The position numbers and the translations under genes were made by a program. A stretch of DNA of 63,218 bases, the filler included, from Kipferlia bialata (taxonomy: Eukaryota), in NCBI GenBank assembly GCA_003568945.1. It is 5 parts of 5 records of this genome, joined end to end, with 100 filler letters (N's around TTAATTAATTAA, not from the genome) between each part and the next. Parts side by side here need not be neighbours in the genome. Positions count along the whole stretch, not along the records: positions 1 to 18,197 come from BDIP01000487.1; 4 more parts are not named here. One strand, written 5' to 3'. Under the pieces are notes generated by a model that searched no databases, was not told the origin of the DNA, and saw nothing but the letters and a program-made list of their open reading frames with translations. The stretch's first letter is position 1; each line of letters begins with the position of its first letter. Shown one piece after another: positions 1 through 56,191 of the stretch.

Positions 1-11
1 GGGGGGGGGGG

Positions 12-57
<46 letters not shown>

Positions 58-662
58 GTTCCAATACAATATCATTGTCGATACCCGCATATACAGGGGA
101 CGGGCGCTGTATGTATGACACAGGCAGAGAGAGAGAGAGAGCGTCTCACACGCCAAAGTACCTTTCAACGATATACAAGTGCCATATGCACAAGTATAAA
201 TATATATGTATATACTTACTTCCACACTAATATTCTACTAGAGAGAGAGAGAGAGAGAGACCACCTGCACCCAGGCACCCACAAGGGGTGTTCCGGCTGG
301 AACTGCTTCTGTTCCGGTGCATCAGATAGATAACAAAAGAAAAGAGACGAAAGTAGGAAGATGCCTCTGAAGGACGTCTGGAAAGTGAGACGTCCAGGAT
401 CTAAATTGGGAACATCCCCCAACACTTTGTGTCTATTTTTAGTCCCATTTAGTCCTCGTTGTCCGCGGCTGTAATGCAGGTACATGACGCGGTTCATGTA
501 TCTACGTTGTGTCAACGAAATGAGTACCATATACACTACTAATAGTAATGGATCATGTCTATAATTTACTAACAAGTGACAGCCTGTTCGATATATGGCT
601 GATAGAAATGGCTGCTTCGTCCAAGGTCATACTGTCATGCCTGTGCTAGTGTGGACATACAA

Positions 663-703
663 CCATCATTAACGCCATCATTAACGCCATCATTAACGCC
701 ATT
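663..703. repeat. 12-bp tandem repeat (CCATCATTAACG)x3
   Basis: Directly visible in intergenic sequence. Confidence 0.85.
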
Positions 704-803
704 AGCGGCTTGTACACTCGGGTGTGAAACTACAGTGCAGTACACACACTCTACTACTACTGTTACTCTCTCTCCCCCCCTCTCTCTCTCTCTGTCTCTT
801 TCT

Positions 804-3800
804 CTACTGTACTAGGTCCATAGGCAGAGAGGGCTTCCCACTGCAGTGGATGGTGCCATCAAACTGGGGTGAGTACACGGATAAGAACCTGGCAGATACA
901 TGGAGTACAATGAGAACAACATTGAAGTGGTAAGTCAATTGGACTAAGTATAATAGATCTATCTCTAAGTGTACCCTTGAGCTGTCTGACCCCTCTGACC
1001 CATGGGTATGATACAGAGTATAGAGTATAGCAAAGTATATATATATTATACATAGTATATAGACATATACATACCCTTGAGCTGTCTGACCCCTCTGACC
1101 GGTGGGGATAGGATATAGAGTATATAGTATAGCAAAGTATATAAAAACTATGTTATATATAGAATATTATATATAGTATATGCTATATGCGTACCCTTGA
1201 GCTGTCTGACCCCTCTGACCCATGGGGATAGGATATCCTGACACCATACATAGATACAGTATACATAGTATATATATACATATACATATATACATACCCT
1301 TGAGCTGTCTGACCCCTCTGACCCTGGTGGGTATGATATCCTGACACACCCCATAAACAGGGGGACCTGTGGTATGAGTAGAGAATGGTAAATATGAATA
1401 GATAAACTGTTATAGGTAATAATATACTAGTATAGTATATATATAGAAATACATGTTGTCACTTAAGGATATCCTGACACAGCCCATGAACAGCGGGACC
1501 TGATGCATAAGAATCAATGTATAGTTAGATTAGTGTGTATACAAAAATGGGTACTATATATGTACAACAAATGGAATATATCCTGACCCTGCCTGTGAAG
1601 AGGGGAACCTGGGGTATGATAATGAATAGTATCAACACAAAATACTTTGGAATGTATTAAATACCTGTTCCCTCAGCCAGTCCACGTGTCTGAGCAGTAT
1701 CTCTCTCTCTCTCTCTCTCATCAAAAGTATATATATACATACATATACTTGGACTACCTGATCTCTCAGCCAGTCCACGCGTCTCAGCAGTGTCTGCACA
1801 TTGACATCCCCCCTTCTCTCTCTCCCCCTATATATATGGATATTAATATATATATATATATCTATCTATATACCTGTTCCCTCAGCCACTCGACGTGTCT
1901 GAGCAGTCTCTGCACATTGGCGTCTCTCCTCTCCTCCCTCACTCTCTGTCTCTCTCTCTCCCTAGCAGCTTCTCTCTCTCTCTTATCCTTGTCGCCAAAG
2001 TGCACGGCAGTGCCATCGGCTGAGATGTACTCGATGCCTGAGGTCAGACACACATTTATAATAATAGTGATATAACAATACACACACATATACTACTACA
2101 TGTCTATATATTTATGACAGTGCACGGCAGTGCCATCAGCCGATATGTACTCAAAACCAAGAGTAAGACACGATTCTCCACATATCCCCTGTCTTTACAA
2201 CATATCATTTACAATACAACACTAACTGTATTGAATTATAGATGCTCATACCCTGGTCGATGTCCCCTGCTATGTCATCATGCACAGTGGCAGAGGTGTT
2301 GCCATGGCCGGCCTGGAGGGTGAGAGGTTACAAAGGAGTTACATGTGTATATATAGAAAGACAGACAGAGAGAGAGAGTGGTGTTGCCATGGCCGGCCTG
2401 GAGAGTGAGAGGAATATCCAATGATGAAGGCTCTTTCACATGAAGTGGGGCATGAATATATACCCACCTGGTACCCCGAGGGAGCCTCTATGTGCCATAT
2501 CTGCTCCATCCACGCAGCATACAGCACATCAAGTCTCTAAGGGTAAGCTAATGATAATAGAATAGTGTGACATGATACAATTTGTCGATCCACATATATA
2601 TACATCATACAGCACATCAAGTCTCTGAAGGTGAGAAACTCCTATGTGTAACATACTAACCAAGCAGCATAGAGGACGTCGAGTCTCTGTCTGAAAGCTA
2701 ATGGGCTAATGGTACTAATTTCACTCTACACGTACCGGCTTCCTCCTTGGCTTGGGCATGGTGCTAGGCAGTCTGAAGAGAGGGTTCCTGCCAGGCCTGG
2801 GTGAGTGACATGCAACCGAGTACAAACAACCAGAGACAATACACGCAATTAAAACAATTGGATAGTGTACTGTACCTAGGTGCTCTGTGCATCGGTGTGG
2901 GTTGTATGTAGTTGGGGTCCAGCTCCTTGAGTCTCTGCTTCTCTCTCGCACGCTCCTTCCTGGCCTGTCTCTCTCTCTCCTCTGCCTCCTGAAGTATTAG
3001 GGGTGAAGCAGATGATATAGATGGTATAGAATAGAGCATGCAATTTAGAAACACTAATGATCAATGACTGTGTTGTGTGTTCCTTCTCTCCCTGTGGATA
3101 ATGGTCCAAGCCTCCTATGACCCATTCTCTCTCTCTCTCTCTCAACGTATATCTTCTATCCAATAAGTATATATATACTCATTCATACCTCCTTCTCCCT
3201 CTCTGGGTCCCACCCCCCCATGACCCACTCGAAGAACTCGTCCATCAGCCTAGGGTCAGCAGAAGATTACACAAAAGGTATATATACACTTTACCCTAGC
3301 CCTACTATGGAAGTGTATTGAATATCTGACCATCTCAGGGTACACACATATGTCAAGGAACAAACTTCTCTGGGTACCTGCCGGACTATACTACAGGAGA
3401 GTAGTGATACTCCTACTAATATACATAAAAGTATAATATTACAATACAAATATTATGTAAGTATAATATATATACAATAATACAATATTTGTAATATATA
3501 AACACACCTGTACTGCACCACAGCTGGGACTGGCACACAGACACAAGAGTAATACCGTGTGTATATGCATATATATATGAATATACACTATATATACATA
3601 TATATATATGTATACTATGTATACCTGTACTGCACCACAGCTGGCACTGGCACATAGACACAACAGCAATACCGTGTGTATATGTATATATATATATATA
3701 TGTATACTATACATATATATATATATATATATGTATCCTATATACACCTGTACTGCACCACAGCTGGCACTGGCACATAGACTGAGGGTGGGTTGGAGTC

Positions 3801-6800
3801 AGGGCCCACACCTCCACTGTTGTCTCCCTCTCCCTGTCTCTCAATCACAGAGAATGCCCTCTCCAGTGGGAGCCACTGCTCCATGTAGAACCTGGTCTGG
3901 AGTTAGGGATNCCCTCTCCAGTGGGAGCCACTGCTCCATGTAGAACCTGGTCTGGAGTTAGGGATACACTACACATATGCATATACACATACAGAGAAAG
4001 TGTGTGCGTGTACCTCTGCATCTGAGTTGATGGCCTCCCTGGTTGGTCCTTCTGTCTCTCCACTCTGTCCATAGAACCTGTCTATCAGTATAAATATAGA
4101 TGGACACATATATAGATATATATTATATACATATCATATGGATACTGATACTGATTCTGATACTGATACCCATAGAACCTGTCTATATGTATATACCTAT
4201 CTATGTAGCTGCGCTCAGCTGCCTTGACATCGATGGTCATGCCCTGGGGTGAGGATACTTAAGCATAACTTAAGGATATGTAACTGAGAGACCAAGAAAG
4301 AGAGAGGTGCCAGGCAATCAAAACTCATGTACTGAAGATAGCAGATATAGTCTTGCTCATGCATGTCAATACCATATAATAGTATGGCTGTACCTCCAAT
4401 ATTGTACTTCCAAGTATTCTTGCTCACCTCCCCGAAGTTCCCTATCATAGCGTTCTTGATCATGTCTGTCCAGTTCATGGTCATGCCATCACGCCACACA
4501 TGCCTCTGGGCACTGGCCTGGTGGGGTAGAGGTACACTCTATACAGATGTATATATACCAATATGTATATACATAGAGAGAGAGAGAGAGAGAGAGATCA
4601 TGGCCATGCCACACATGGCGCTGGGCACTGGCCTGGGGGGTTAGAGTGTACATCATAATACTCACATTAATATATATGCATGTCTAAATATAGAATGCTA
4701 CTGTTATATTCAATACATCTAAAGAAAGGGCTTCACGCCACACATGCCTCTGGGCACTGGCCTGGGGGGTCAGCAGACGGCAAATGTACAGGCATGTATA
4801 TATATAAGGAGAGGTTATGTACTATATATATGGAGAGCTCATGGTCGTAATGCCACACATGCCACTAAGCACTGGCCTAGGGGCTAGGGAGGAGAATTGA
4901 ACACCGTACTATCGCAAACTGCCGATCTCTGTCCATTAACCTTTGGAAGCATTCATACCTGTCTGAAGTGGTCACTGACCATGGCGTAGATGCCCTGGGA
5001 GCCTGGGAGGGTCAGGTATTACGCGATAATGGGAAATACCATACGTTAACGCGAGATAGATATATGTATACTTTACCTGTTGTCTGGTAACAGAGGACGA
5101 AGAACAGTCTTGAGAGCAGGTCTGTGTTGAAGACCTTGAGTGACTCATATGCATTGAGGTAGAGTGTCTCTCTCTCTCCCTCTCTCTCCCCTTGAATGTG
5201 TGCGAGTGCCATCTCTCTCATGAGGGTGTAGGAGGCATCGGCCGCAGCTGAGATTAGATTCTATAATAGTGTATTACAACATATATATATAGGTTTTGTA
5301 ACTACTTTTCAATGAGTAGATACATGCTCTCTCATGAGGGAGTAGGAGGCATCGGCGGCAGCTGGGGTAAGCATTGCGAATATCACACATTTCTATAACA
5401 ATTACTGGACTATAGAGAGACAAATATATCGAGTATAGGAGGGTAGGAGGCGTCTGTGGTGGCTGGTGTAAACATAGGGTAAGAGACGCCATACAAAATT
5501 CATGTAAATAGAGATACACATATCCACACCTGGTATGTTTGTCATTGAATACATACAGTTCTAAATATATACTATATAAATACACACACATATATATATA
5601 TACACATACACCCATATCCACACCTGGTATGTTTGTCATTATAATAATATTATATTATATATATCTATATATATCGCCCTCACGCCTCTGCTCTGGGTGG
5701 AGTCACCTGGAGGGTTAGACTAATGAAGGATAATAAGAATAGATTCAGGATAATAATGGACAAATTGCCAGGGGTTGGAGGGAAGCATTTATATGCTCAA
5801 TTCACCACGATAACAACATATAAAGAAATGTATGCAGACATGTGTATGTGACTCTGGCTGGAGTCACCTGGGGTTAAGCTACTCAATAGAACAAAATATA
5901 CATATATCCACTCTGGAGGTAATGTATTAATAATGTAATAATCAAATACTTCATTCTCAGCAGTATTCCACTTGTCTCATACCTGTCCCGAAGCTAAATC
6001 CCTGATATATACGCTCCATTGTATCCCTGTCCCAATATGTATACTTATAATATACATATATACCTGTCCCAAAGCACGAGTTCAGGATGAGACTGAAGAG
6101 GGCAGCCCTGTCCAGCAGAGAGGGCACAATCTACGCGGTGAGTACACAACATACTACACGATGACGTAACACTGTGAAATGTGTCAATTCTACGCGACGT
6201 GTACCTTGAACACGCTGTACATCTCGTGTCTGGTGTATGGGCATCCAGTGAGAGAGGCAGATGGTAGGTCGGCTGGGGAGATGCCGCTCTCCCTCTCTCT
6301 CTCCTTCTCCCTCTCCCTCTCCATGTCTTGCTGGTGCAGTCTCCTGCCACCCTCCACAGAGTGCAACAGCCTGGGTGTAAAGATAGAGTAGCTAACAAAG
6401 CTTAATAATATGATGTGCATGTGATATAACAATATGTACATTGTGCCTTCTGCCACCTGTCCTGCCACCTGTGTATATAGTGTAAATATAGGAAAATACT
6501 TGTAAATACGCATCACTACCTTGACATGATTGAGTCTATGATCCCCCCCAGTCTTGTGTATGCCTCACATCCTGTGCCACACTCACTGGCACAGGCAGAC
6601 TGGACCTCCCTGGCAACCCTAGTGTTAAGGTATAGAGGGATAATAGGAGTATCTATTGCACAGGAGTTACCTTGGCAACCCTAGTGGTTAGAATGGAATG
6701 GAGTATACAACAATATAGCATTATCACTACTCTCATATTCAGAGGCACAGGCAGACTGGACCTCCCTGGCAACCCTAGTGTTAAGGTATATATACATATA

Positions 6801-8815
6801 CACGATATCTATATACATTTGTATATATATACACTGGTATACATGATATCTAGGGCACAGGCAGACTGGACCTCCCTGGCAACCCTGGTGGTAAGGTATA
6901 TACATATACACGATATAAATACACATATATAATTAGATGCACATATACACTGGTATAAATGATATCTAGGGTACATGCAGACTGGACCTCCCTGGCAACT
7001 CTGGGTGTAAGGCATATATATATATACGATTAACATATATATCAACAGTACATATGATCACTATAATCATATTAATGGCACAGGCAGACTGGACCTTGCA
7101 ACCCTAGGTGTATGATATATATGGCGAGGTATAGAGGAGAGATAAATACATACATATATACGATATATAAATATACGACTACCATCCTACCTGACCCCTG
7201 CACACAGCATAGTGGTGACACAAGTCAGTCTCTGCTGGCCATCGATGACCTGGGGGTAAGGGACTATAGGATAGGGTAAAGTTCTCAGTAAGAGTATTCA
7301 TGTATATGCGAGTATATATTTGGAATCAGATACACTCATACCTCCAGGGTGTTGATGCCCTCGTCTGATGTCCCGTCTGTCAGTCTCTCTCTCCCCCTGG
7401 CAGATTAGCACGATGGGAACATATTTATACATAGTATCATGACACTATTCTACGCCAATAGGGTCAATGTGAATCCGCTGACTTCAATTTTTACCTGTGC
7501 TATGCTCCCACATGGACGGATGTACAGTAGTATACATATATACAAATACATATGTATGTATATGTGACACTATCGAGAGCGTCTATATATAATACTAAGG
7601 TACCTGTACACGTGTATGCTTCCACATGGATGGGTGGTGCCCTGCCTGGTGCCTAGGATAAGAAGATGTGTATACATGGGTAAAGGTACAAAACATGAAG
7701 TACAAATTAGGGCTATCCACCTTGCTTGGCCACCTCTGACAGACGCTGCACGTCTCTAAAGTATATACATTAGATATATGAACAGAGTAAGTATATAGTA
7801 TAATACAATATAGTAGAGTACAGTATATATATATAAATATATATGTACCTTGCTTGGCCACCTCTGACAGATGCTGCACATCTCTTGAATAGATATATGA
7901 GATATACATACAGAGTCTACATAGAGTATATACAGTATGTATAGTATAGTAAATATTTACATATATACCTTGCTTGGCCACCTCTGACAGATGTTGCACA
8001 TCTCTAAAGAGTGTCTCCACATGTTTCTCAGTCCAGCAGAAGCGTCTGAAGGGGTGAGCAGCATCGTAGTATATACCGAAATGCAATATTTCACAATATT
8101 TGATATAATAAAATACGTTATGAGGAAGAGAGTCCAGCTGAAGCGTCTGGAGGGGTGATCATAAATGTGAGAGCTATACATATACGTTGAAGCGCCAAGA
8201 GGGATGGTATGTCATACTATATATATGACTACATATACAAGAGAGAGAGAGAGTGATATATACCTCTGGAACAGGGGAATGGTCACTGCCAGGGGTGCAG
8301 TGTCACAGGTGCCCTCAGGGAGTAGCTCGCCAAAGGTACACCTTGATTGTAAGCAGACAGATAGAGACAGACAGACATACAGACAGAGAGAGAGAGAGAA
8401 AAGGGGGGGGGAGGCATATATACAGGCATACAGACAGAGAGAGATGTGCTGTCAGGGAGTAGCTCGTCAAAGGCACACCTACGGAATAAGAGGTATATCG
8501 TTGGCATAAGAACAAAAATATTTATAACTGGGAGATAGAAACTATGTCAGTGATATGGAGTCGCTAATATGGGAAAGAATATGATAGGAGGGAGAGGGTG
8601 TGAATAATGGTGATAGACAAGGGGAGAGAATATAAAACTTTCAGGGGGGGTCCCATGAATATACAAAATGTATACTAACACACTATCTCCCTGTCTTTGT
8701 GATTGAGGAGAGGGGGGGGAATCACACCATACTCCTACCACCAATGCTATTATATATCCATACATATACCCTACCTCCCTGCCTCGACTGTGATGCGGTC
8801 AGGGTCATAGGGCAT
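804..8815 (-). CDS. DUF262 (GmrSD N-terminal, ParB/Srx-fold) domain protein, about 24 exons, no HNH/DUF1524 domain seen
   Basis: Hand-spliced GT-AG exons stay in frame from MPYDPDRITVEAGR (ATG 8815) to FDGTIHCSGKPSLPMDLVQ* (TAG 804-806). They carry the DUF262 motifs in order: IPLFQR-RFCWTEKHVETLFRDV (about 8280-8000), HPCGSIHVY (about 7620), LEVIDGQQRLT (about 7345-7225), IVPSLLDR, and GIYAMVS...RDGMTMNWTDMIKN (about 4990-4450). An upstream exon may exist, and one junction near 5550-5680 is less certain. Confidence 0.8.
973..1612 (-). repeat. Exon-edge echoes around the VPLFMGCVRISYPPGSEGSDSSR exon
   Basis: ACCCTTGAGCTGTCTGACCCCTCTGACC occurs at 973, 1073, 1193 and 1296. Acceptor-side copies lie at about 1468-1500 and 1579-1610. 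Confidence 0.9.
6588..7106 (-). repeat. Acceptor-edge echoes of the RVAREVQSAC exon
   Basis: GGCACAGGCAGACTGGACCTCCCTGGCAACCCT-like units occur at about 6588 (real exon), 6744, 6854, 6976 and 7077, with a short unit at 6670. Confidence 0.9.
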
Positions 8816-9131
8816 GGCTGGGGGTGAGACAGACAGAGAGAGAGAGAGAGAGAGGGAGAGAGGTGCGGTCAGGGTCATAGGGCATGGCTGGGGGTGAGGT
8901 ATAATGAATTGTAGTAAAGTATATGGGTATATGGGAATCTCTGTAGATAGGGAAACAGAAAGAGAGGGAGAGGTCAGGGTCATAGGGCATGGCTGGGGGT
9001 GAGGTATTGAATAGAATACAAAACACATTTACTATCAGCAGTAAGGGAATAATTGTATACAGGGAGAGAGACAGAGAGAGAGAGGTCAGGGTCATAGGGC
9101 ATGGCTGGCGGTGAGACAAAGGGAGAGAGAT

Positions 9132-9174
<43 letters not shown>

Positions 9175-9196
9175 GAGAGAGGGGGGGGGGGTATAC

Positions 9197-9962
9197 AGAG
9201 GAACTTGGTATCCATTACTATCAAACTAGAGTAATGTAGTCGTAGGGAGTAAAGTGAAGGGAGGGAAGAGAGGTATATACTCAGAGAAGGATATAATGGA
9301 TATAATATAGTATATGTGAGTACAATCCAGGACCAACCTGTCCGCCCACCCGTGCTCTGCCACCATGCTGGATATGTCAGGGTGCATGATACGCATCCCG
9401 GCAGAGGGTGCAAGGGCCCGGAGGGCAGATCTGGACTGAGACCAAAACGGTACCGGTACCGAACATGATACCCACAAATAACACATGCACACAATACATA
9501 CCTCTTTCCACCCCCGGCCACCCCCGAGAGGATGAGTATGGAGGGTCTCTCTGTCATCCAGGAGGTCAGACGGCTGAGGTGAGTGCAATGAGGGTGGCTA
9601 TGGGGTATTGGGATACAGACACTTGGGAATGATATTATTGCAAGAACCGACACTGGAGCTGTCCCCATATACTTATCATATTGCATACACTACCTCTTTG
9701 TCTTGTCTCTGATCATATCTAGGTTGGGTGCAAGGGTCATTGGGAATGGATATCGCTTCACACTGGTCTGTTTTCGCTGGAACCGGGGTCTCCTCAGGCT
9801 GTTCTGAGACATCTTCTGCGACGTGGCTTGACGCTGTGACGCCCGAGGAGGAGACACCGAGAGGGAGAGAGAGCTGGAGCTGGAGAGAGACAGAGTGGAC
9901 TGTTGGAAGGTCATCGTCTCACTGGACTGGGAGTCCTCAACCACGCGTCTGGACCGCTTCAT
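9197..9962 (-). CDS. P-loop NTPase N-terminal fragment, Rad17/clamp-loader AAA+-like (partial, or fused to the DUF262 gene)
   Basis: Exons 9962-9694, about 9573-9502 and about 9430-9337 splice in frame to ...KRYPFPMTLAPNLDMIRDKTKSRLTSWMTERPSILILSGVAGGGKRSALRALAPSAGMRIMH, a Walker A-like motif after a hydrophobic strand. A possible 29-nt exon at 9225-9197 adds SLIVMDTKFL. Confidence 0.5.
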
Positions 9963-10364
9963 CCCGAGGGTATATCGGGCTCACCACCCAGGAAACAACC
10001 TCACGTAGTTCGTACTCGGCTTATAAACTGATATATATACCGACTTAAGAAGAGACTAGGACCAGCGAATATCTCACCCTACACCCCTAAGCCAAAAAGT
10101 AGAATGTTCGTGAGCGAACATTATGTTCGGAACATACAGGTGCATCGACCAGCCAATGATTCACATAGACTATTTGACCTAATGACACCGCATACCACGG
10201 AGCAACCTCATTTAATCACAAGACACACAACACAAAGTACACATAAACAACCCTCACCCAAGAAAGGGGGCTAACACACATACATACAAGGTGGTATCAA
10301 AACAACGACACCTAATGACGACTAACATACACAATACAATCTCACTCCCAGAACGGGACTCCCC

Positions 10365-13199
10365 CTACTTCCTGATGGCTGTGGGCTTCACCTTGTAGGA
10401 CATCTCCCACAGCTCTTCGGCGTCTGTGTCCTCTGCGGTGATGAAGTCACACAGCCTGGGGTGAGAGGGGGGGAGGGGAGGGAAAGACTACATAATATGG
10501 ATATATGGTCAGTGCATACACACCTAGGGTCCACCGTGTAGTGCACGGGCCTGAGCTGAGGGGCTAGGTACCCCAACACATGGGCGTATATCTGACAGCA
10601 CCGGGTGAAGTTGACCTAGAATGAGAGAGAGTTAGAAGAGTCTGTACAAACACATTTGTATAGTCTTCCCACCTGTCCGTGCTCCACCTTCTCGCTCCCC
10701 TCCTCAACCATGATCAGGTCCTTGCACGTCAGACCACTGTAGGGGACATAGGAGCCTGTGCCTGCAAAGGTGACCTCCTTCTGCACCACACCCTCGGCAG
10801 GGGGGTGGAGCAGGGCCACCATTGCCTTCCTGTATGCCGCATAGTTGTGCTCAATGTCGATGAAGGCAGCCAGGGCATCCAGGCTGCGCTGTGCCTTAGA
10901 GGTGACTGCAATGTCGCTGGACTGGATCAGACGCTTGACCTAGGGTGAGTGAGGGTATGAGGTCTAGAGCATAAATGAACCATAAAGATATACAGATGTA
11001 CAGATACATAGATTTGATATTATTGTCTTATCAAAGTGTACCTGTGGGCATCTGAGGCCACTGAACACTGCAAACAGGGCCTCGAACTGCCTCATGGCCT
11101 TGAGCTCACAGGCCACAGCCACAAAGTGGGAGAAGGCCTGGGACCGGTAGGAGCTGTCCTGGGGTTGGACTAGAGGGTATACATATACACATATACATAC
11201 ATGGGAGAGAGATGGAAGTAAGGCCGTACCTCCGATGTGATGAGCACCCTGGACACCCATGCGGATATGGAGTTGTGCCTCTGGATCAGTATGCGCACAT
11301 GGGGGCACAGGTGGTACTGGGACGCCTTGGTGAAGATCTGGTTCACTAGCTCTCTGGGGGTCAGATTGCAATGCAATAACAGACACACTTAACTGTCACA
11401 TACCCCTACTAAGAAGGTAACGTGCCATGTGCACCTCTTACATATACATATATACACATACATACCTAGGGTGTATGTGTGAGTATGCCTCGTGCAGGAT
11501 GTATCCGACGTGGTGTGCCAGGGTGGAGGGGGACAGACCCAGGAGCACATGGGAGGGAAGGTCCCTCTTGCTCCCTGGCGTCTCTCCCTCCTGTGTGGTC
11601 TCCTCGGGAGGCAGGATGGTGGTGACGGTATGGGGGGGAGTGAGGTGGTACCCCGTCTCCCTGTGCTCCCTCTCCCCGTCTCTCTCCCCCATCAGCTCCC
11701 TATACCTGCCGCCAACCTCGTCTATCTCAGCCACACCCAGACAGGCCAGGGCCGGCACAGAGGGTGCGTGTGGGTAGGGCGTCTCTATCTGCTGGGCTGG
11801 GAAGGGGTGGGGCTGGACACCAGGCAACACAATGGCGGTGGGCACACACATGGTGGGGAGGGTCGCCTCTGTAGCAGGGGAACCCTCCTCCCCTACCACA
11901 GTGGCTAAGGAGGCAGAGGGGGAGGCCGGGGTGACTGCTGGGGACGTGGCCCCTGGGTATGTGTCAGCCAGGGTGGCGTCCAGCCGCTCCATGTCTGACA
12001 GTATCAGCTCAGACAGAGACCCAAACACAGAGGTCGACAGGGACACAGCAAACTCAGCCACCTGCTCCAGGAGGGGCAGGGAGAAGTCATCAAAGTACGA
12101 TGTCAGCCACTTGTGCAGCAGCAGAATGACACACCGCTGCCTGGGCAGCTGCTGGTCCACCACGTAGCTCTGGCGCTCCATCTCGGACAGACCCTCGGGT
12201 ACGGGCAGGGCATACACGTCGAGTAGCTTCTCCAGCAGAGACTCAGCCGAGAGGTAGACTGGGTACACGAGGAGGAACACATTCTGGGTGTATGCACGGG
12301 CACTGAGAGTGAGAATCACAAAGAGATTCATAAATCCTCACTTATATGTCTATACTGATGACAAAATATATGGACTAACCTAGGCGTCTGCTTTGTGTCT
12401 GTCATTGTGAGGACTACCCTGTTGACATAGCATCTGCGGAGGATCCTTGGGTGAGGGATAAGTGAAGGAAGGGAAAGAGAGGTAGAGAGAGATCTGTGCA
12501 CCTGACTGACTCTGGCACTGGCATCCACCCCCCTGGGAGTGCAATGGCATTGCCCCAGTGGGTGTTGGCATCAGAGGCGGCGGGCTCTGCCATGACAGGC
12601 CTGGACAGGGCCACCTTCTTGGAGACAAACCCATCTGGGGGTGGAAGACACAAGAGAGAGAGACACTTTGCGGAGGGGGGGGAGGGGGGGGGGGCTTCAT
12701 TAGTAACAATAACACTGTACCTGTTCCTATGTGCTTCTTGAAGATTAGGAGCAGAGCATCGTCCTTGAACTCACATGCCCTGAGGTGGGAGAGAGGGTGC
12801 AAAGACAATCACAATAGTGCTGCACCTTGACACGCATACACCAGACATTGCCAAAGGTACGTGACAGATCATGTAACAGACACGTAACTACAAGGGTTGT
12901 GAGTGTATCTGAACAGCCAGTGTCTAGTATAGAAGGACGAAAGCTCAGACTGGATACCTCACGAGCTCCAACTTGTAGGGAGTGTCTCCAAGCTTGGCCA
13001 GACGGCCGAATGTGCGTGTGGCAAGGTCCTTGTACTGCACCATGTCATATCCAACAGGAACATCAAGCCTATAGGGCTCATAAGACTCAACCTGCACATA
13101 TAGAGCGAGTGTCTCGCTCTTAGGGGCTTCCTCAGCGATAGCCTTGGTCTCTGGGCCATCCTGCGACACTACTGGCACATCATCCTCGATTTCGGGCAT
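10365..13199 (-). CDS. Ras guanine-nucleotide exchange factor (REM + CDC25 domains)
   Basis: The spliced product has the REM signature VFLLVYPVYLSAESLLEKLLDVY...RCVILLLHKWLTSYFDDF. It also has CDC25 signatures LSPSTLAHHVGYILHEAYSHIHPREL, IQRHNSISAWVS, RQFEALFAVFSGL, VPYSGLTCKDLIMVEEG, VNFTR and LWEMSYKVKP. Stop at 10365-10367. Confidence 0.9.
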
Positions 13200-33613: not shown

Positions 33614-34283
33614 ATGGGAGACGTACGTATAGTTCTATAGCTTTTATAGGTTCCTGGTGCCTCTAACCCCCTAGATTTTCAGCATGAATGGCTCTGCCAT
33701 TGTTGGCATGGCCGGCAAGGACAGTGTGGCCATTGCTACTGATCTCCGCTACGGCAACAGCTACCAGACGATAGGAACGAATATGAGGAAGGTTTTCAGG
33801 CTGTCAGACAACCTGATGGTGGCCCTGGGAGGCCTTGCCACTGACATCCAGACCCTGTCTGCCAAGCTGAGGTTCCGTGTCAACCTATACGAGCTGGAGG
33901 AGAAGCGCCCAATGTCCCCCAAGGTGGCCACTCGCATGCTGTCGCAGCTGCTGTACAAGCACCGGTTTGGCCCATTCTTTGTGTCCCCTATTGTGGCTGG
34001 ACTGTCCAAGGAGGGGGAGCCCTGGGTGGCCTCCATGGACTCCATCGGAGCTGTGTCGGATGTGGATGCTTACTACTCGGAGGGGACTGCTGCTGAGACC
34101 CTCATGGGTGCTTGTGAGACATACTGGAAGGAGGATATGACCCCAGAGCAGCTGGGTGGGACTGTGGAGAGGGTTATCCAGGCTGGTATGGGTAGGGATG
34201 CATTCAGTGGATGGGGTGCAGAGGTGTGGCTCCTCACATCCGAGGGACTGGAGGTGCGGGAGGTGAAGACAAGGCAGGATTAA
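33614..34283 (+). CDS. PSMB3: 20S proteasome subunit beta type-3
   Basis: Exon 1 encodes MGD (33614-33622), followed by an intron at 33623-33674. Exon 2 reads IFSMNGSAIVGMAGKDSVAIATDLRYG...GLATDIQT...LLYKHRFGPFFVSPIVAGL...GRDAFSGWG...KTRQD*, the PSMB3/PUP3 signature. Confidence 0.95.
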
Positions 34284-36707: not shown

Positions 36708-39700
36708 GTGTGCGGGTGCTGTCTTCCACAGGGTCAGTGATCAGATGAGGAGCACAGAGGTACGATGGATACTGTGTGTGATATATATATGGTATATTGT
36801 TATACAAGGCGCTGTATGTAATAAGGCTATATATATATATATATATATATAAGGTGACCAGATGAGGAGCACAGAGGTATGGCGCATACTGTATATGTTT
36901 TAATAGTAGTATTTATATAGTCGATATATAGCGCCTGATCTTCATCGAGAGATTGTATTCTTTTGGTCCATTGATGACTGTTCATATTCGTACATCACTC
37001 ATCTCTAATTGTCAGGGCCCCATGGACGATGACCTTACCCAGGACAGCTCCCTTATACTGTGGCACTTCTTGGGTATGTTCATATGTTAGAGTATATGTG
37101 TATATTCTATTATTATATATATACTATTAGTATTTCTATATACATGAATTAGCTCCATCATACTGTGACACTTCCTGGGTATGTGTGTGTTTGATACCAT
37201 ATATATACCATATATTCTTTATGTTACTGATAATCATTGTATATACTAACACTCAGGTCAGAGTGCCCGTGACGTGTGTGAGTCCTTGTATGAATGTATA
37301 ATGTAATGTATAATAGTGTATATGTATATATATATATGTGAATATATACACAGCCTTCTCACTCCCAGGCCAGAGTGCCCGTGACGTGTGTGTGTCCCTG
37401 TTGTCCAGGGGTGCAGACTCATTCATACCAGACAACGCAGGCCTCACACCTCGGTACGGGAGGGATTCATTTGCTTCGCATTTATGCTACATTACCTTCA
37501 ATTGATATATACAATTCAATGTTGGTACAGATACTGACTCCCAGTGACTATGTTGTCCTCTTCCTCAAGGGTCAGCGGCTTCTATCAGGACCAGACTTCG
37601 AAAACCAGGTATATATGCATGTATATATATCAAAGTATATATAGAGAGAGAGAAAGACAGAGAGAGGGGGGGGGGTATACGAGGATAGCGGTTCTTCTCC
37701 TCTTCTTACCCCCAGCCCATCCCCACTGCTGACAACGAGTACTCAACCGGACAAGAACAGTCAGGTAGTGAGTAGCATTACGTTCTAGTGATACCCCAAT
37801 AAGATGGTAGTTGTGTATTTGGAACATTCAGTTGAGTTTGTGTTTGTGTCAGTACCGGTGCCAATGTGTATACGGTATTTGTATACTGTGGGATATTTGT
37901 ACCTCAATATCACTCTATTAACGTTGTTGAACCTACTACTAGAGAGACGTACGCATTGTCTCCTTCCTCACCCCAGTCAACACTGAGGCCGTGCTAGTCA
38001 GACTGTACCCTCTGCTCCTGCAGCAGAAGGGGGCCAAGAAGACATTCAAGGCAGCCGTGACTCAGGTAGGCTTCTATAATAGTATATATTTGTATATATA
38101 TACAGAGAGAGAGAGATGACATTCAAGGCAGCTGGGACACATGTAATGCTGGATACATACATTACCCCAATATTCCAACACGTGTCTCACCCAGGCCTCC
38201 AAGTACCTCCCCCACCATGTCTCCACACAAATATTCATGCTCATTTACATATATGTACTATAATAGTATGTATAGTGTATCTATCTAAGTGAGACTNNNN
38301 NNNNNNNNNNNNNNNNNNNNNNNNNNNNNNNNNNNNNNNNNNNNNNNNNNNNNNNNNNNNNNNNNNNNNNNNNNNNNNNNNNNNNNNNNNNNNNNNNNNN
38401 NNNNNNNNNNNNNNNNNNNNNNNNNNNNNNNNNNNNNNNNNNNNNNNNNNNNNNNNNNNNNNNNNNNNNNNNNNNNNNNNNNNNNNNNNNNNNNNNNNNN
38501 NNNNNNNNNNNNNNNNNNNNNNNNNNNNNNNNNNNNNNNNNNNNNNNNNNNNNNNNNNNNNNNNNNNNNNNNNNNNNNNNNNNNNNNNNNNNNNNNNNNN
38601 NNNNNNNNNNNNNNNNNNNNNNNNNNNNNNNNNNNNNNNNNNNNNNNNNNNNNNNNNNNNNNNNNNNNNNNNNNNNNNNNNNNNNNNNNNNNNNNNNNNN
38701 NNNNNNNNNNNNNNNNNNNNNNNNNNNNNNNNNNNNNNNNNNNNNNNNNNNNNNNNNNNNNNNNNNNNNNNNNNNNNNNNNNNNNNNNNNNNNNNNNNNN
38801 NNNNNNNNNNNNNNNNNNNNNNNNNNNNNNNNNNNNNNNNNNNNNNNNNNNNNNNNNNNNNNNNNNNNNNNNNNNNNNNNNNNNNNNNNNNNNNNNNNNN
38901 NNNNNNNNNNNNNNNNNNNNNNNNNNNNNNNNNNNNNNNNNNNNNNNNNNNNNNNNNNNNNNNNNNNNNNNNNNNNNNNNNNNNNNNNNNNNNNNNNNNN
39001 NNNNNNNNNNNNNNNNNNNNNNNNNNNNNNNNNNNNNNNNNNNNNNNNNNNNNNNNNNNNNNNNNNNNNNNNNNNNNNNNNNNNNNNNNNNNNNNNNNNN
39101 NNNNNNNNNNNNNNNNNNNNNNNNNNNNNNNNNNNNNNNNNNNNNNNNNNNNNNNNNNNNNNNNNNNNNNNNNNNNNNNNNNNNNNNNNNNNTACCTGCT
39201 GCACCCAGCATATCGGGCATGGGGGCCGCATTCCCACAGGTACTAATGTATATATACATATATAGGTTCATACCAATATATATGTATATATATATATATG
39301 GTGTATGACCTACCTGCTGCATTTCTGCTTGATCTACCTGCTCTACCCAGCATATCGGGCATGGGGGCAGCATTCCCACAGGTATTAAGTATTGGACATT
39401 GATTATTAATTATTACACATAGTAGATTAGAGTTATGAACAGTAATAGAGTTACGATAGTTAGGTGTATGTGACTTGTTTGTTCCATCTTAGAATGAATC
39501 TTACAACAGGCCGGCCCAGATATCCGGTCCTGTCGGGAGCGCCTGATCCCCACCCCCGAGCCAGAGATGCTCAGCACACGCACACTCAGAGGTAGGGGTG
39601 TGTATGATTCGCAGACTGCTGACTATTCATCTTTCGTTACTCACTCAGTTTCCACGTTTGAAGTGTATTCTTCTATGTCATTGTAATCAATATATATATT

Positions 39701-42700
39701 TCTAAGACTCATAACCAGCTGCCCGTCCCATAGCCCCCCTATCCCCCGGTGCAGTGGCCACCATAGCCACATACAGAGTGCGGAGGCTGATGGCACTCCC
39801 TGATAGGTATATTGTGTATAGTATATATATATGTGTGTGTGTGTGTGTATATATGTGCCACCATAGCCACGTACAGGGTGCGGAGGCTGATGGCACTGCC
39901 AGACAGGTATAAATAGTATGTATATATATATAGTACACCCAGTATATATAGATATATGATGATTGTTGTGACTTATCGATCTTACCCTTTCAGGTTCTTC
40001 AAGCCGCCCCTGGTGTCTGACGACTCCGAGTCGGAGGGAGACAGCATATACAGTTCCTACGGCACTCCTTCTAGTCCATCCAGCACCTCTAGCACACCCA
40101 GGGGTGGGAGGGGTAGGAGAGGACCCAAGGGTAGAGCGGCCCTAGGCCTTTACGTGGACTCTGAGTTTGAAGGGGAGGGAGAGAGAGAGTTTGAGAGAGA
40201 GAGAGAGTCTGATGAGAGTGGTATTGATCGTCAGAAGAGGGACTCTGGAGTGAGGCTGCTGAGTGGAAAGGTAGGGGTTGTGTCCTCGTTTGGAACAGTG
40301 AACCTTTAACTACCATATCCTACGACATGGATACATCTCGAAATGTATAACAGCAGTGATGTAATGCTGGTATATGTATTATGACTAAGTATACTTGTCA
40401 CATACTTATGTGTAGGACAGACAGGCCAGACAGTCCAAGGACATCATGCGGAGGTTCACATCAAGGTATGTGTCTTGCCATAATCGTATTTCATCTCTTA
40501 GTGACTGCATTGTGTACCTTTCCATAATAGCATACCCACAAGCCATTCGTTAGGTCCCCAGCACACTCACTTCTATTGAATCATTGATAGTGTTAACCAC
40601 TACCCCCAGAATGATCTCTGCTGCGGGTACCCCTGTCCCTGAGAATGCCATTGCATCAGATAGTGAGCTGGAGGCTAGGGCATCCAGGTATATGGGACAT
40701 ATCATACACTATAGATTGATATGTATTTACATATATACGGGTATGTCATTGCATCGGACAGTGAGCTGGAGGCTAGGGCATCCAGGTATCATAGTGTCTG
40801 GAATTAGCCTCACTGTTGTTGATGACACTGAGGTCAACGCTGGGGTATTAGTGTGATGAGTGGTGATGTTTCCTATTCCCATTCCTGTAACTGTTCACTT
40901 ATACCCAGGGTCCGTCGTGCCGAGCTCTTTGCAGCCAAGGTCCGGAACCCAGGTAAAAGAGTACAAGGAGTTCCCATATGCACGTGTTTTTAAGAGTCTA
41001 CAGTGTTTACACTCCCTCACCCTCAGGCCTAGCCTTCTGGCCCCTGGCCCCCTCGTGCTCTCTCCCAGTGGCGGAAGGGTCTGATACACCATGCTTCAGA
41101 TACAGGGTGGGTGTATGTTAAATAGATATATACACATGTATATATATATATATATATTGTGTCTCTATATTCTCTGCCCGGGCTTCCTATACAGGGTGGG
41201 TGTACATTGTATTACCTGTCCAGTCGATATATCGGATACTGTATCACATACTCCTCTGACTGGTAGGTGCGTGGCTCCACCCTTGGTGAGCAGCTGTCCC
41301 ACCTCATGAGACCAGACGGAACAGCAACAGGTATATTTATATGTGTGTATACATGTATGTATCTGTATATATATAGTCCTGGTGGGTATAGTGTATATGG
41401 TGTCCCACCTGATGAGACCAGACGGAACAGCGACAGGTATATTTATATGGGTGTATACATGTATGTATTTGTATATATATAGTCCTGNCAGGTATATTTA
41501 TATGGGTGTATACATGTATGTATTTGTATATATATAGTCCTGGTGGGTATAGTGTATATGGTGTCCCACTTGATGAGACCAGACACAACAGTACCAGGAA
41601 TACACATATTACTTAACAACTGTATATGTCGGCAATATAGTACATAGAGTATTATGTATACTTGTCTGACCTCAGGATCCTTTGGTGTAGTTGGTGTTGG
41701 ATCAGCATTCTGTGGCAGAGACTTCAAGGATGGTGAGTGTCCATCATTTACCCTTGCTATATACCCTTGCTTCCGCCATTTACTTCACCAGTCAGAGAAT
41801 GAAGATATGTCACTCTACTTCGTTGCTCTCTCCAGGTCCTGAGGCTCTCTCTAGTTAGTGTGTAGGTTACAATTGTCATTATATATATCTTACCCCAGGC
41901 CCTGACGCTCTGTCCTGGGAGGACCTCCCCGATGATGGGTGGGCAGAGGCAGACATGGAGACGGAGAGAGAGAGAGAGAGGCAGCTGGAGGAGGAGGACG
42001 CCATGGAGAGCGAGCTCGAGCGGGAGATGGAGAGAGAGATGGAGAGGGAGATGTTAGGTGGTGATCTCGGGCTCGGTGGTGACGATATTGCCTCCAACCT
42101 AGCTGCTCTCGAGCACTTTGGGGCTGATATCACGGACTCTGAGCCAGAGACCCCAGAGGGTGCAGAGGGAGAGAGCGACACCAGCAGAGAGAGGGAGAGA
42201 GAGAGAGCTGCCTCCCATGAGAGGGAGAGAGAGAGAGAGAGTAGGGCAAGGGCGTCCAGTCTCGCCAGTGAGGGGGGCTACATGAGGGACCTGGCTGCTG
42301 AGACAGACAGTGTGTCCACTCTCACCATGGCACTCGGGAAGCTCTTAGGTACGCGTATATACATATACATGTGTGTATGTGTGTGTGGTTAATTGTTTGT
42401 GCATCTCCTGTATGTATGTTTCACTGTCTCTGATACCAGGCACCGCCTTCAATGTAGGTGGTCTCCGTGCTCCCTCCAACATACCCTCCGGCCACAGGCC
42501 CCCTGGGTCTCTATTCGACTCTCTGGCATACAGTCTGGCACCTATCAGGGGTGCCATTGGAGCCCTCTCCCCCTTTGTCCCCGTTCTCCCACCCCTGCCT
42601 TTCATAGAGGGCGACACTACCTCAGTCAACGAGGGGAGGGGAGGCAACGAAGGGAGTGAGAAGGAGGCGGATACATCTCCTGCGGACGAGGATGATGGGG

Positions 42701-49213: not shown

Positions 49214-52001
49214 GGTGTGCCTGTGTATCTTCCATTAGATAGGGAGTTACCAGCCTGGCACAGGTACTTCAGCCTCAACTATTCTCGGTCACTCTACATC
49301 TGTTACTACTGTAATTATATCAGAGTGTAGATACAGTCGTCTATTTAAGCAATGGTTGTGTTTGATGACCATTTACTTGCAAACCCGATGTCCTTTGTCT
49401 CTCTCTTTCTCTCTCACACCTGACAATCCAGGTTCACCTCTGCCACTGAGCCCCTCCCTGCCAATGTGGTCATTGACATGGGGCAGAAGATATCCCTTAT
49501 CAGGTTGGTAGCTCCAACCCCGTCTAGTGTATCCTATATGTATACAACTATGGTCATTAGCACGAAGCAGTATATTCCTGAACATGTACCTCCGACCCCC
49601 CGACACCCCACCTTTAACACACCCTCCACTGTCTCCATATATATGGTCTGCTCACCTTATAAATCCATTCACTTCTCTATATGGATGTCTCCCCTCCTAT
49701 GTCCCATTCTATGACTAAATGCATTTACATCGTACGACACAGATACCTAGCCTTCTACCCTCCGTCCCTCCTATCTCCCACCTCGATTACTACAAGAGTA
49801 ATATATATTCCCCATATAGGCACGGCTTCCTAGTAGTCTAGCCCTTCTACTTACCCTATCTCACTCATTTCTCGTCCTCTATTCCCGCCTCTAGACGAGG
49901 CATCTTCCCCCACGAAGAGTCCAATCAAACCTTCTCTCTCTCACACACACACCCGACCCCCGTCCTTTCTCCCTCACGAACTGTATACTAACCTCAGACT
50001 AGGCATCTTCCTCCACGGAGAGTCCAACCAGAACCCAGCCCGTGTCAGATACGAGGTATCCTCGGTGTGTATATAAATTGTCAGTAATTGGAAGGATAGT
50101 CATTGTGTATGGGGACCATGTGTATATACTCTAACACCTAGGTCAGTGTGGAGGCCCCTGAGGATGAGGGTTTCGAGTGGGTCACATTGGTGGACACACC
50201 CCTGCCACAGGTAAGCACAGGTTCTTACTCGGTTGTACTATGTGTCAATATGTGTTTCATACTACTGTATGTTCCGAGCGACTGGTGCACATCCAACTCC
50301 CTGAGGAACTGTACTACGTGTCGTGCTATCCCCCTGCGGATTGATGGCCTCTCTCCCCTATTACTCTCCCCATGCATGACTCTCTAATCCCCAGAGAGGA
50401 GGAGCGTTCATGTGGAATATCGTCGATATTCCAAATATCGAGGACAAGCCATGTTACAAGGTCAGCATCCCCATTCGTTTTGTTAACATTGTGTTTAGAG
50501 TGTGACGACATGTGGATGTTCTAGAGAGAGTCACATTCTCTCCTTCATCACCTTAGCGTTACGTCAAGTACCCTATTTCAGCACATATCAATGGTGATAT
50601 GAATGCTACTTACTTTCTGCAACTCCAGCAACGCTCCAATGCATAGTCACTTTCTCTCGCTTACATGCAGACTGCCCGCTATGTCAGGTACACCATTGTC
50701 TCCAACTATGGGGGTTCAGGTGCATACACCACCAAACTCTACCTATTCGGTACTCCAGCCTTGTCACTGCCCACCCTGACAGAGCCTCGGTCCACACTTC
50801 AGGTCCGTTCTAACCACTCTATCTACAAATCTATCCATTCATCAATCACACATCAGGGCCCTTTCAGTTGTGCAGACTCTATGTGTGGCCAGGAGTTCGA
50901 CACAGAAGGTAAAGCCTCTCACTGACTCTCTCTATGTATATCTTCCTTGAACACAGACCATCGTGAGTTGCCTCACACAAGCAGTCTCTCTCTCTCTATC
51001 TCTCACACACACTCCCTCGACATATACATATGTGCTCTTAGAGTAGGTGACCGTGACCTGCACCACACGGAGGTCCATGGGGGCAAGCCCTACCGGTGCG
51101 GAGTAGCGCTATCAGGTGAGAAGGAGAAACTTTCACTCAATTAAGTCATTAATCAATCCTCCTCACTGTCGCAGTGGGTCACTATGAGGCACGTGCTCAC
51201 CCACAGGTGGGAAGAACAGTCTGTCAGGCACTGGACGGGGTAGAAGACTGACCACCTGTCCCCAGTGCTTTGGAACAACAGGTTAGTATTCATTCCACCC
51301 CGTTCCTGTAACCCTGTCTTTCACTCCCCCAAACCACCCCAAGCCATGACGATCATTGGGGCGTATGTAACATCTCTCTATCATTAGTAATGATTCATTA
51401 CGACTAGTGCCTAGTATTGCTGCTGTATTTGTGTATATTCGTGACCTCAGAGGAACTGGCCGCTCACATGCCTCTCCACAGATTCCGCTGTACCCACACC
51501 CAGTGCTCAGACAGAGAGAGTTTCCTCACCCTGGCAGGTATCAATCAACATATACGTATTCAAGAGCCACTAGCAGTGATATCCGATGATTGTGAGTTTG
51601 AGTCAAGCTTTGACCAGAATGGTCCTTCTACTCCTGTCCGAAGCATTCTCACGCACACAGTCTCTGTCAGGTTCTCCCATTCCCTTGTATATGTGCCACA
51701 GCTCTCTCTGCATCTAACCCTAGCACTCCAGGAGCACATGAAAGAGGTGCACAGTGTGTGGCAGTGCCCTATTTGTAATGCGTGCGTTGCTTTCTCTTTC
51801 TCTTAATGAAACTCTTGGGTGAACCGCCCAGGGAAACAGTGGTACTGGAAGACAGATAACAACTATTCCTTAAAAATTCTAGGTTTTACTCATTGGCAGT
51901 GCAAGGATGACCCTAGAGGAGGCACTATTCCACATGAACCAGGCTCACGAGGTATGTAGTAAGGTGTACCATATTAGTACCGAATAACTCTCATTCAGTA
52001 G
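48623..52001 (+). CDS. Discoidin/F5-8 type C (galactose-binding-like) domain plus C2H2 zinc-finger protein
   Basis: The spliced N-terminus reads SFSSQYHHESRALNLL...CWFTSATEPLPANVVIDMG...NPARVRYEVS...WVTLV...TARYVRYTIVSNYGGSGAYTTKLYLFG. It is followed by the fingers FSCADSMCGQEF..LHHTEVH, FRCTHTQC..SFLTLAALQEHMKEVH and WQCPICNAARMTLEEALFHMNQAH (C-x2-C-x12-H-x4-H). Confidence 0.75.
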
Positions 52002-54982: not shown

Positions 54983-55278
54983 GACCCACTCCACCTCCAC
55001 ACACAGACGGGACAACACACGGGGGACATCATCAGGTAGTCATACTATATATATATATATTCATTGTATGTCAGACTCTATGTGGCATGTGTAGTATTAT
55101 GTGTACATAGTGTATACCCAGACGGGACAACACACGGGGGACAGTATCAGGTATACACATTGAATATATTGTCTATCAGACTATAGTGGTACATAGTCAG
55201 TCTGGGTCTAGATTCTCTCTCAATGTATATATTGAGCGAGTTAACATTAGGCCTAGGTCGCACCTTCCAGATGAGTGC

Positions 55279-55317
<39 letters not shown>

Positions 55318-55627
55318 CTTTCTCTCGATTCATGTATATATATTTTAACATATAGGTCTTGGTCGCACCTTCCAGATGAGTGCCTGTGGCTCCTGAGGTT
55401 AGGAAGGGAGGGGTGTATACATCATAAGGAGTCATATAGGAGGTGTACCTTCTCTAGAGAGAGAGAAAGAGAGAGAGAGGCCCCACTGTGAAGATGATTG
55501 CTTCGTGATATTACATCCTTCCCTACTCTTCTCCTGTAAGAGGGAAGATAGAGAGAGAGAGCGTATCTGTGAGTGGTTGATGGTACATGGCCTAAACCCC
55601 TATTGTAGGGGAGCCTGTGCTGGACAC

Positions 55628-55658
<31 letters not shown>

Positions 55659-55726
55659 ATAGAGAGTTAATGAGTGTAATGAATAGAGTTCTGAAGCAAT
55701 GTAGGGGAGCCTGTGCTGGACACTAA
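54983..55726 (+). CDS. 3' fragment of an unknown gene with echo-rich introns
   Basis: The exons DPLHLHTQTGQHTGDII|RSWSHLPDECLWLL|RGACAGH each have partial duplicate copies. The reading frame is not certain. Confidence 0.35.

Positions 55727-56145: not shown

Positions 56146-56190
<45 letters not shown>

Positions 56191-56191
<1 letters not shown>

What the first reader, a model, noticed from the sequence alone, without database searches (positions are those of the whole stretch)
804..8815. Intron-rich eukaryotic DUF262/GmrS-type gene without the nuclease domain
Seen: IPLFQRRFCW, GSI, VIDGQQRLT and DMIKN motifs are split over many spliceosomal exons, so this is a resident nuclear gene and not bacterial contamination. 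Established: DUF262 is the ParB/Srx-fold NTPase module of the prokaryotic GmrSD type IV restriction and SspE defence proteins, usually paired with the DUF1524 HNH domain, and some eukaryotic homologues are known. Here the usual FxxxN position reads YAMVS, and I see no HNH motif. Inference: a domesticated, probably laterally acquired defence-derived nucleotide or modified-DNA sensor.
Basis: partly seen in the sequence, partly recalled or inferred. Interest (0 to 1): 0.72.

Follow-up and report, generated by a model that had tools for sequence, protein, structure and literature searches.

The report
Nuclease-free GmrS-type gene of protists
A free-living protist has a real 23-exon gene for the nucleotide-hydrolysing half of a bacterial anti-phage restriction enzyme with the DNA-cutting half missing; it belongs to a branch shared by distantly related microbial eukaryotes and likely works as a nucleic-acid-sensing switch, though no activity has been measured.

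Summary
Observation confirmed. A 23-exon, all GT-AG chain (8815-804, minus strand) encodes 637 aa, identical to residues 22-658 of Kipferlia bialata KIPB_002770. It passes the PF03235 cut-off, its predicted fold matches the SspE/DndI N-terminal domain (Z 19), YAMVS aligns to FxxxN, and there is no HNH domain. The C-terminal third is mostly the helical middle part of GmrSD with low-complexity inserts, not a new domain. The gene is not a Kipferlia-specific acquisition: it sits in one HNH-less branch (96/88 support) with Naegleria, Micromonas, a diplonemid and dozens of environmental sequences, many with eukaryotic neighbours. The branch lost the FxxxN Asn, gained an insertion of about 12 residues right behind it, keeps DGQQR, and is under purifying selection. 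Best reading: an old domesticated NTPase switch that binds nucleic acid and signals without cutting (inferred). Eukaryotic GmrS homologues were listed in 2015, and this scan noted the branch before in Naegleria. I found no paper describing it as a clade. No RNA evidence was obtained.

The parts
804..8815 (-). Gene KIPB_002770, 23 coding exons: 8815-8775, 8341-8264, 8045-7969, 7652-7604, 7396-7342, 7249-7191, 6618-6520, 6370-6205, 6130-6064, 5247-5077, 5002-4959, 4517-4428, 4243-4197, 4077-4014, 3896-3748, 3249-3189, 2988-2876, 2796-2736, 2536-2468, 2312-2252, 2037-1874, 1366-1298, 863-804
   Evidence: identical to P0001 residues 22-658
8033..8280 (-). Motif I, P-x-F-Q-R-R-F-C-W, split by an intron; equivalent of the SspE P/Y/Q/R patch
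   Evidence: role of the patch in SspE from PMC9646914 passages
7615..7632 (-). H-x-x-G strand motif (His94 invariant in the branch)
7223..7249 (-). Motif II, DGQQR (Asp124-Arg128), the NTP-hydrolysis motif of SspE and DndI, intact
   Evidence: PMC11662687 and PMC13251355 passages
4452..4988 (-). Degenerate motif III (YAMVS for FxxxN), the branch-specific insertion, then DMIKN; spacing 27 residues against 14 in prokaryote-type proteins
1874..3896 (-). Helical tail homologous to the first part of the GmrSD middle domain, interrupted by E/R-rich and Pro-rich inserts; the homology ends before the HNH domain
972..9117 (-). Partial copies of exon ends with their splice sites lying in the adjacent introns ('mirage'-like repeats), 86-100% identical to the used exon
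   Evidence: 13 of 22 introns; 0 of 462 non-adjacent controls
9132..9192 (.). Poly-G tract between the gene's first acceptor and the next upstream reading frame; possible assembly join
   Evidence: poly-G and poly-C also end the scaffold
9338..9962 (-). Upstream three-exon reading frame with a Walker-A-like stretch; no good in-frame donor links it to the DUF262 gene
10365..12337 (-). Neighbouring RasGEF gene (3' part), eukaryotic context on the same 18,197-base scaffold

Best explanation
This is an intact protist nuclear gene for the N-terminal part of a GmrSD-type protein (DUF262 domain plus part of the helical middle domain, no HNH nuclease), it groups with a nuclease-free branch found in several eukaryotic lineages, and it likely works as a nucleic-acid-stimulated NTPase switch that signals to other proteins instead of cutting DNA. 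Shown: exon chain, domain, predicted fold, truncation before the HNH, intact DGQQR, loss of the FxxxN Asn with an adjacent insertion, grouping with the eukaryote-associated branch, purifying selection on relatives. Inferred: one old transfer of a bacterial gmrSD into eukaryotes, followed by loss of the toxic nuclease; binding of DNA or RNA (possibly modified) at the PxFQR patch and middle helices; stimulation of NTP hydrolysis at Arg128; changed nucleotide handling because motif III is rebuilt; output through a conformational change to a partner encoded elsewhere, as proposed for NsnA of Menshen.
For: PF03235 above cut-off, no PF07510. The model matches SspE 1-327 at Z 19.0, rmsd 3.4 over 242 residues, and DndI 5-379 at Z 18.3. 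The profile of 42 branch members aligns to residues 1-350 of a 619-residue GmrSD and stops before its HNH residues at 512-559; 42 of 42 hit PF03235 and 0 of 42 hit PF07510. DGQQR is present in 51 of 51 branch rows; its Arg is needed for hydrolysis in SspE and DndI (passages). Motif III to Asp spacing is 14 in 71 of 71 scorable prokaryote-type rows and 23-72 in 48 of 48 scorable branch rows, 27 here. Trees without the trait columns put all branch rows on one side: 51 of 51 (SH-aLRT 85) and 29 of 29 (96/88). With P0001 left out, the branch profile scores it 127 bits over residues 30-495, the prokaryote profile 71 bits over 50-167. Named members: Naegleria lovaniensis, Micromonas commoda, Namystynia karyoxenos; top Atlas cluster 87% eukaryotic, mostly diatoms. 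The signature pattern gives 1 confirmed locus in 185,579 prokaryote genomes, and that one is prokaryote-type. pN is well below pS in 13 of 13 pairs. Nuclease-free DUF262 plus helical domain has a precedent in NsnA (PMC12065111 section 13).
Against: No activity, localisation or partner was tested. The Kipferlia protein has no close relative (best other hit E 2e-6, at most 32% identity over tree columns) and a long branch, so its place inside the branch is unresolved. Only part of the middle domain is kept; whether the SspE DNA-binding residues survive was not tested. Loss of the motif III Asn could lower or abolish hydrolysis. Only four members carry a species name, and 9 of 20 scanned environmental loci had no informative neighbour. 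Inside the branch the tree does not follow the species tree (the diplonemid groups with Micromonas, not Naegleria), so transfers between eukaryotes or hidden paralogy are possible. Giant-virus DUF262 proteins exist and were not in my trees. My branch label and the metagenome search pattern both used the Cys of motif I, so that residue is not an independent trait.
Confidence: 0.55

Rival explanations
1. The branch has become a housekeeping enzyme of the ParB/sulfiredoxin fold that uses ATP to modify a small molecule, protein or nucleic-acid end, with its newly fixed Cys, His, Arg and Asp residues forming a new active site.
For: Residues fixed in the branch but variable in prokaryote-type rows: His94 51 of 51 against 33 of 72, Pro232 51 against 25, Asp236 51 against 40, Arg237 49 against 15. 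The Cys is invariant in the 18 members found without a pattern. Neighbours are unrelated housekeeping genes with no shared order. Sulfiredoxin and SerK show the fold can be an enzyme (passages).
Against: The helices tied to DNA binding and dimer formation in relatives are kept; no substrate-binding domain is common to the branch.
Confidence: 0.22
2. The protein is still an antiviral sensor: it recognises modified DNA of giant viruses or other invaders and switches on a separately encoded effector.
For: All characterised close structural matches are defence proteins. The P/aromatic/Q/R patch that reads phosphorothioate in SspE is conserved. Giant viruses carry DUF262 proteins of their own. C-terminal add-ons vary between members.
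Against: No HNH or defence family among 72 neighbouring frames scanned, apart from a methylase beside the one bacterial locus. Strong conservation over deep splits and purifying selection fit a steady cellular role better than an arms race. This overlaps with the best explanation and differs only in trigger and purpose.
Confidence: 0.15
3. Kipferlia took the gene from bacteria on its own, and the likeness to other eukaryotic copies is convergence or long-branch attraction.
For: Long end branch (1.4) and no supported sister group inside the branch; motif I and the GSI strand look partly bacterial (Ser after the Gly).
Against: It shares the insertion that 0 of 71 prokaryote-type rows have; leave-out profile scores; AU test rejects joining it to one bacterial subclade (p 0.013, group chosen after seeing the tree).
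Confidence: 0.05
4. The gene is a decaying, catalytically dead remnant or a mis-predicted chain.
For: Motif III is lost; many inserts; many introns hold decoy splice sites; the 5' end is unresolved; no RNA could be checked.
Against: Open frame over 23 exons, all 18 columns invariant in the 42-member alignment are kept (which includes this protein), and motif III loss is branch-wide.
Confidence: 0.03

Closest known systems
SspE (PDB 7DRS, 6JIV) and DndI (PDB 9JFL), phosphorothioate-sensing DUF262-HNH effectors
   Same: DUF262 fold (Z 18-19), DGQQR, P/aromatic/Q/R patch, start of the helical domain behind it
   Different: No HNH domain, no FxxxN Asn, an insertion of about 12 residues, no ssp/dnd modification genes nearby, 22 introns, 13-14% identity
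GmrSD / BrxU type IV restriction enzymes (PF03235 + PF07510; PMC4619093)
   Same: PF03235 above cut-off; collinear with the first 350 of 619 residues of a GmrSD
   Different: GmrD/HNH half absent; motif III absent; BrxU itself is a weak structural match (Z 5.2)
NsnA of the Menshen system (PMC12065111)
   Same: Architecture: DUF262 plus helical ParB-associated domain, no nuclease in the same chain
   Different: NsnA keeps FxxxN per the paper and sits in an operon with its effectors; the PADLOC NsnA model hits only 15 residues at E 0.01
Eukaryotic GmrS homologues listed by Machnicka et al. 2015 (diatoms, green algae, Heterolobosea)
   Same: The same three groups turn up in this branch
   Different: In the passages and sections I read they are only counted; no clade, motif change or metamonad member is described

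Membership tests
DUF262 / GmrS domain (PF03235) | Pfam score above the curated cut-off | tested here: met
   64.6 bits against 33.2, profile positions 12-78 of 199
DUF262 / GmrS domain (PF03235) | Motif I QRxxxW and motif II DGxQR | tested here: met
   residues 60-65 and 124-128
DUF262 / GmrS domain (PF03235) | Motif III FxxxN | tested here: not met
   reads YAMVS; Asn in 70 of 72 prokaryote-type rows, absent from at least 49 of 51 branch rows
DUF262 / GmrS domain (PF03235) | ParB/Srx-type fold over the whole domain | tested here: met
   predicted model against SspE: Z 19.0, 242 residues, rmsd 3.4
GmrSD type IV restriction enzymes | GmrD / DUF1524 HNH domain in the same chain | tested here: not met
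   no PF07510, no E/D-H-x-x-P motif, homology ends before the HNH
GmrSD type IV restriction enzymes | Separately encoded GmrD partner in the genome | not testable with these tools
   no genome held; none among the long frames scanned in the window, but short exons would be missed
GmrSD type IV restriction enzymes | NTP-dependent cleavage of modified DNA | not testable with these tools
   needs biochemistry
SspE / DndI | Linked phosphorothioate modification genes | tested here: not met
   neighbours are RasGEF and unannotated eukaryotic genes
Menshen NsnA | Operon with NsnB ATPase and NsnC effector | tested here: not met
   no such neighbours; PADLOC NsnA E 0.01 over 15 residues
HNH-less eukaryote-associated DUF262 branch (defined here) | Insertion behind motif III, no Asn, ends after the helical tail, groups in the tree | tested here: met

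The most novel reading that the evidence does not exclude
A bacterial anti-phage NTPase module was disarmed and domesticated once, at or near the root of eukaryotes, and has been kept ever since in metamonads, discobans, green algae and stramenopiles as an undescribed nucleic-acid-sensing switch or enzyme with a rebuilt active site.
Probability: 0.35. Interest if true: 0.75.

Novelty: new variant of a known kind. Interest (0 to 1): 0.52.

Why it matters
Eukaryotic heirs of bacterial defence proteins are a productive source of new immune and nucleic-acid biology. This branch gives a defined, testable case: it has a clean molecular signature, members in culturable algae and amoebae, and a predicted catalytic residue. 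Its presence in a metamonad as well as in discobans and algae makes an early-eukaryote origin a real possibility. The single gene is ordinary in itself; the value lies in the branch.

Tried and rejected
RNA support: the run search listed one DNA holder and one possible RNA run with a small share; no reads or contigs could be laid, so this is no evidence either way. Whole-genome search for paralogues or a GmrD partner: no genome held. Word-index search with the whole protein found only itself. New C-terminal domain: rejected; Atlas hits for residues 500-658 were all under 0.85 and TM under 0.4, and the region aligns to the GmrSD middle helices; the last 40 residues have low confidence and were not folded alone. 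Homodimer prediction: no answer, score 0.00, alignment not used. Fusion with the upstream frame: the only in-frame donor scores -4.7 against 3.7-12.0 for the gene's own donors; no Pfam hit. Sequence search of the PDB with the single protein gave only two chance hits to Spire; NCBIfam gave none. The wide VIA search was not run. Supplements of PMC4619093 held as text gave no hit for five taxon terms; its alignment file may not be among them and could show which eukaryotic sequences it used.
Full report
Observation. The window is a chain of scaffolds joined by N linkers; the first runs 1-18197. On its minus strand I built by hand a 23-exon chain from ATG 8815 to TAG 804, all 22 introns GT-AG, with C-rich 3' ends. 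A search with one exon returned a single protein, KIPB_002770 of Kipferlia bialata, 658 aa, on a contig of 18,197 bases. My chain matched it at 635 of 637 positions, and fully after I moved one donor by 6 bases to the public position. The public model starts 21 codons earlier in a microsatellite, which the fold model leaves unstructured. The genome paper says over 97% of its models had transcriptome support (PMC5874029, passages); that is not specific to this gene, and I obtained no RNA evidence.

Domain anatomy. PF03235 scores 64.6 bits (cut-off 33.2); PF07510 is not hit. PADLOC hits cover only residues 52-157. An AlphaFold2 model from a 40-row alignment (pLDDT 70, pTM 0.71) matches SspE and DndI (Foldseek E 4e-7 to 4e-6; Z 19.0 over 242 residues to SspE 1-327 and Z 18.3 over 330 residues to DndI 5-379). 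A second model from 42 branch members gave the same elements. Profile comparison aligns residues 31-616 with residues 1-350 of a 619-residue GmrSD (probability 100), whose HNH residues lie at 512-559. So the protein is DUF262 plus the first helices of the middle domain, stretched by low-complexity inserts. The last 40 residues have no counterpart.

Relatives. phmmer over 1.84 billion proteins gave 33 other hits at E<=0.001, the best at 2e-6. Cluster look-ups of 20 of the 33 named Naegleria lovaniensis, Micromonas commoda, Namystynia karyoxenos (a transcript-derived protein) and one Bifidobacterium GmrSD. A profile search added ten proteins, one in a cluster with a EukProt entry. The best Atlas cluster by features and by structure has 50 members, 87% eukaryotic, mostly diatoms, PF03235 only. 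The pattern PxFQR[RK][YF]CW gave 73 confirmed loci of 150 matches in metagenomes and 1 of 43 in 185,579 prokaryote genomes. That one locus keeps the Asn and the 14-residue spacing and groups with prokaryote-type rows. Of 20 environmental loci whose long frames I scanned (72 of 79 listed frames, including the bacterial locus; near-duplicates dropped), 11 have neighbours I judge eukaryotic from my own knowledge, such as holocytochrome c synthase, ArfGAP, Ras, importin and PIH1. The rest are uninformative, and none has an HNH neighbour.

A distinct branch. From 287 candidates I kept 130 after a 65% identity filter, then dropped six fragments and one frameshifted row. I labelled 51 rows as branch members by the motif I Cys and moved five Cys-bearing rows to the prokaryote type by hand (P0007, P0015, P0020, L001, L150). 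Independent traits then split cleanly. The spacing from motif III to the following Asp is 14 in 71 of 71 scorable prokaryote-type rows and 23-72 in 48 of 48 scorable branch rows (41 at 26-28; 27 here). The Asn is in 70 of 72 prokaryote-type rows and missing from at least 49 of 51 branch rows. An E/D-H-x-x-P pattern occurs in 57 of 72 against 1 of 51, and 0 of 42 branch proteins hit PF07510. Trees on 227 columns, without the Cys, motif III and insertion columns, put the branch on one side: SH-aLRT 85 with 123 rows and 96/88 with 59 rows. Kipferlia lies within, on a long branch with no supported sister. An AU test rejected joining it to one bacterial subclade (p 0.013; one alternative, chosen afterwards). 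With itself left out it scores 127 bits on the branch profile and 71 on the prokaryote profile. In 13 of 13 pairs of related loci pN is well below pS; the one unsaturated close pair gives dN 0.06 and dS 0.21.

Mechanism. In SspE and DndI the DGQQR Arg is required for NTP hydrolysis, and a P/Y/Q/R patch in motif I couples modified DNA to hydrolysis (PMC9646914, PMC11662687, PMC13251355; passages). Both elements are kept here, with Phe for Tyr. The helical domain behind DUF262 is tied to DNA binding and the dimer groove, and NsnA shows the two-domain form without a nuclease (PMC12065111, section 13). In ParB proteins the third box contacts phosphates and magnesium and is often lost in divergent members, and nucleotide choice cannot be predicted from sequence (bioRxiv 10.1101/2025.10.10.680097, passages); equating that box with FxxxN is my inference. 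I therefore favour a nucleic-acid-stimulated NTPase switch acting through partners (0.55), over a housekeeping enzyme with a new active site (0.22) and a retained antiviral sensor (0.15). None of this is tested.

Against my reading. Only four members are named to species. The internal tree does not follow the species tree. Giant viruses carry DUF262 proteins that were not in the trees and could be donors or go-betweens. Prokaryote sampling came from prophage contigs and top hits and is not exhaustive.

What is known. Machnicka et al. 2015 list homologues in diatoms, green algae and Heterolobosea (PMC4619093; section 12, section 15 and passages). Six full-text searches (DUF262+eukaryot; GmrSD+eukaryotic homolog; antiphage+eukaryotic homologs+GmrS; PF03235+eukaryot; GmrSD+protist; GmrS with taxon terms) showed no paper on a eukaryotic HNH-less clade; I saw most hits only as listings, and the library lacks most subscription papers.

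Side finding. Thirteen of 22 introns hold partial copies of the flanking exon end, often with its splice site, against 0 of 462 non-adjacent controls. One of the 13 is an exact overlap around a single N and is probably an assembly artefact. Similar local repeats occur on other scaffolds of the window. They resemble the amphioxus 'mirages' (PMC3087553, passages), a lead taken from note e1-7787465. PMC6679479 (passages) and the genome paper passages did not mention them.

Verdict. Real gene, correct domain call, and a new variant of a known kind. The interest lies in an old, nuclease-free eukaryotic branch of DUF262, not in a recent transfer. Interest 0.52.

Noticed in passing
window 972-9117: Partial exon copies with splice sites fill 12 of the 16 introns longer than 140 bases, up to five copies per junction, 86-100% identical; mirage-like repeats in a metamonad, which may explain intron growth in this genome.
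   Followed up: partly
window 18508-19545, 36737-41602, 49888-50035, 55001-58373: Twenty-one further short local direct repeats, many ending at GT or starting at AG, on other scaffolds; the pattern looks genome-wide.
   Followed up: no
window 9338-9962 (-): Three-exon frame with a basic, serine-rich start and a Walker-A-like stretch that recalls clamp-loader ATPases (recalled, no Pfam hit); it breaks off before a poly-G tract, which may be an assembly join.
   Followed up: partly
window 5600-5870 (-): Two acceptor-like copies and two donor-like copies inside the 816-base intron match no used exon; possibly a skipped or lost exon.
   Followed up: no
window 3896-3965: Exact 54-base duplication around a single N; likely a scaffolding overlap.
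   Followed up: yes
window 33675-34280 (+): Proteasome subunit frame without long introns on another scaffold (PF00227).
   Followed up: no
L101, L107, L083, L095, L108, P0074; P0097, L096, L093, P0067, P0068, P0027: Two subgroups of the branch end in different four-cysteine clusters, one RanBP2-finger-like by pattern (name recalled; Pfam did not call it).
   Followed up: partly
L131:134-2437: One branch member lies in the same stop-to-stop frame as a class I methyltransferase domain; fusion not verified.
   Followed up: no
L001:2809-4635: Dehalococcoidia DUF262 protein with the branch-like motif I but prokaryote-type motif III, no PF07510 hit, near a DNA methylase.
   Followed up: partly
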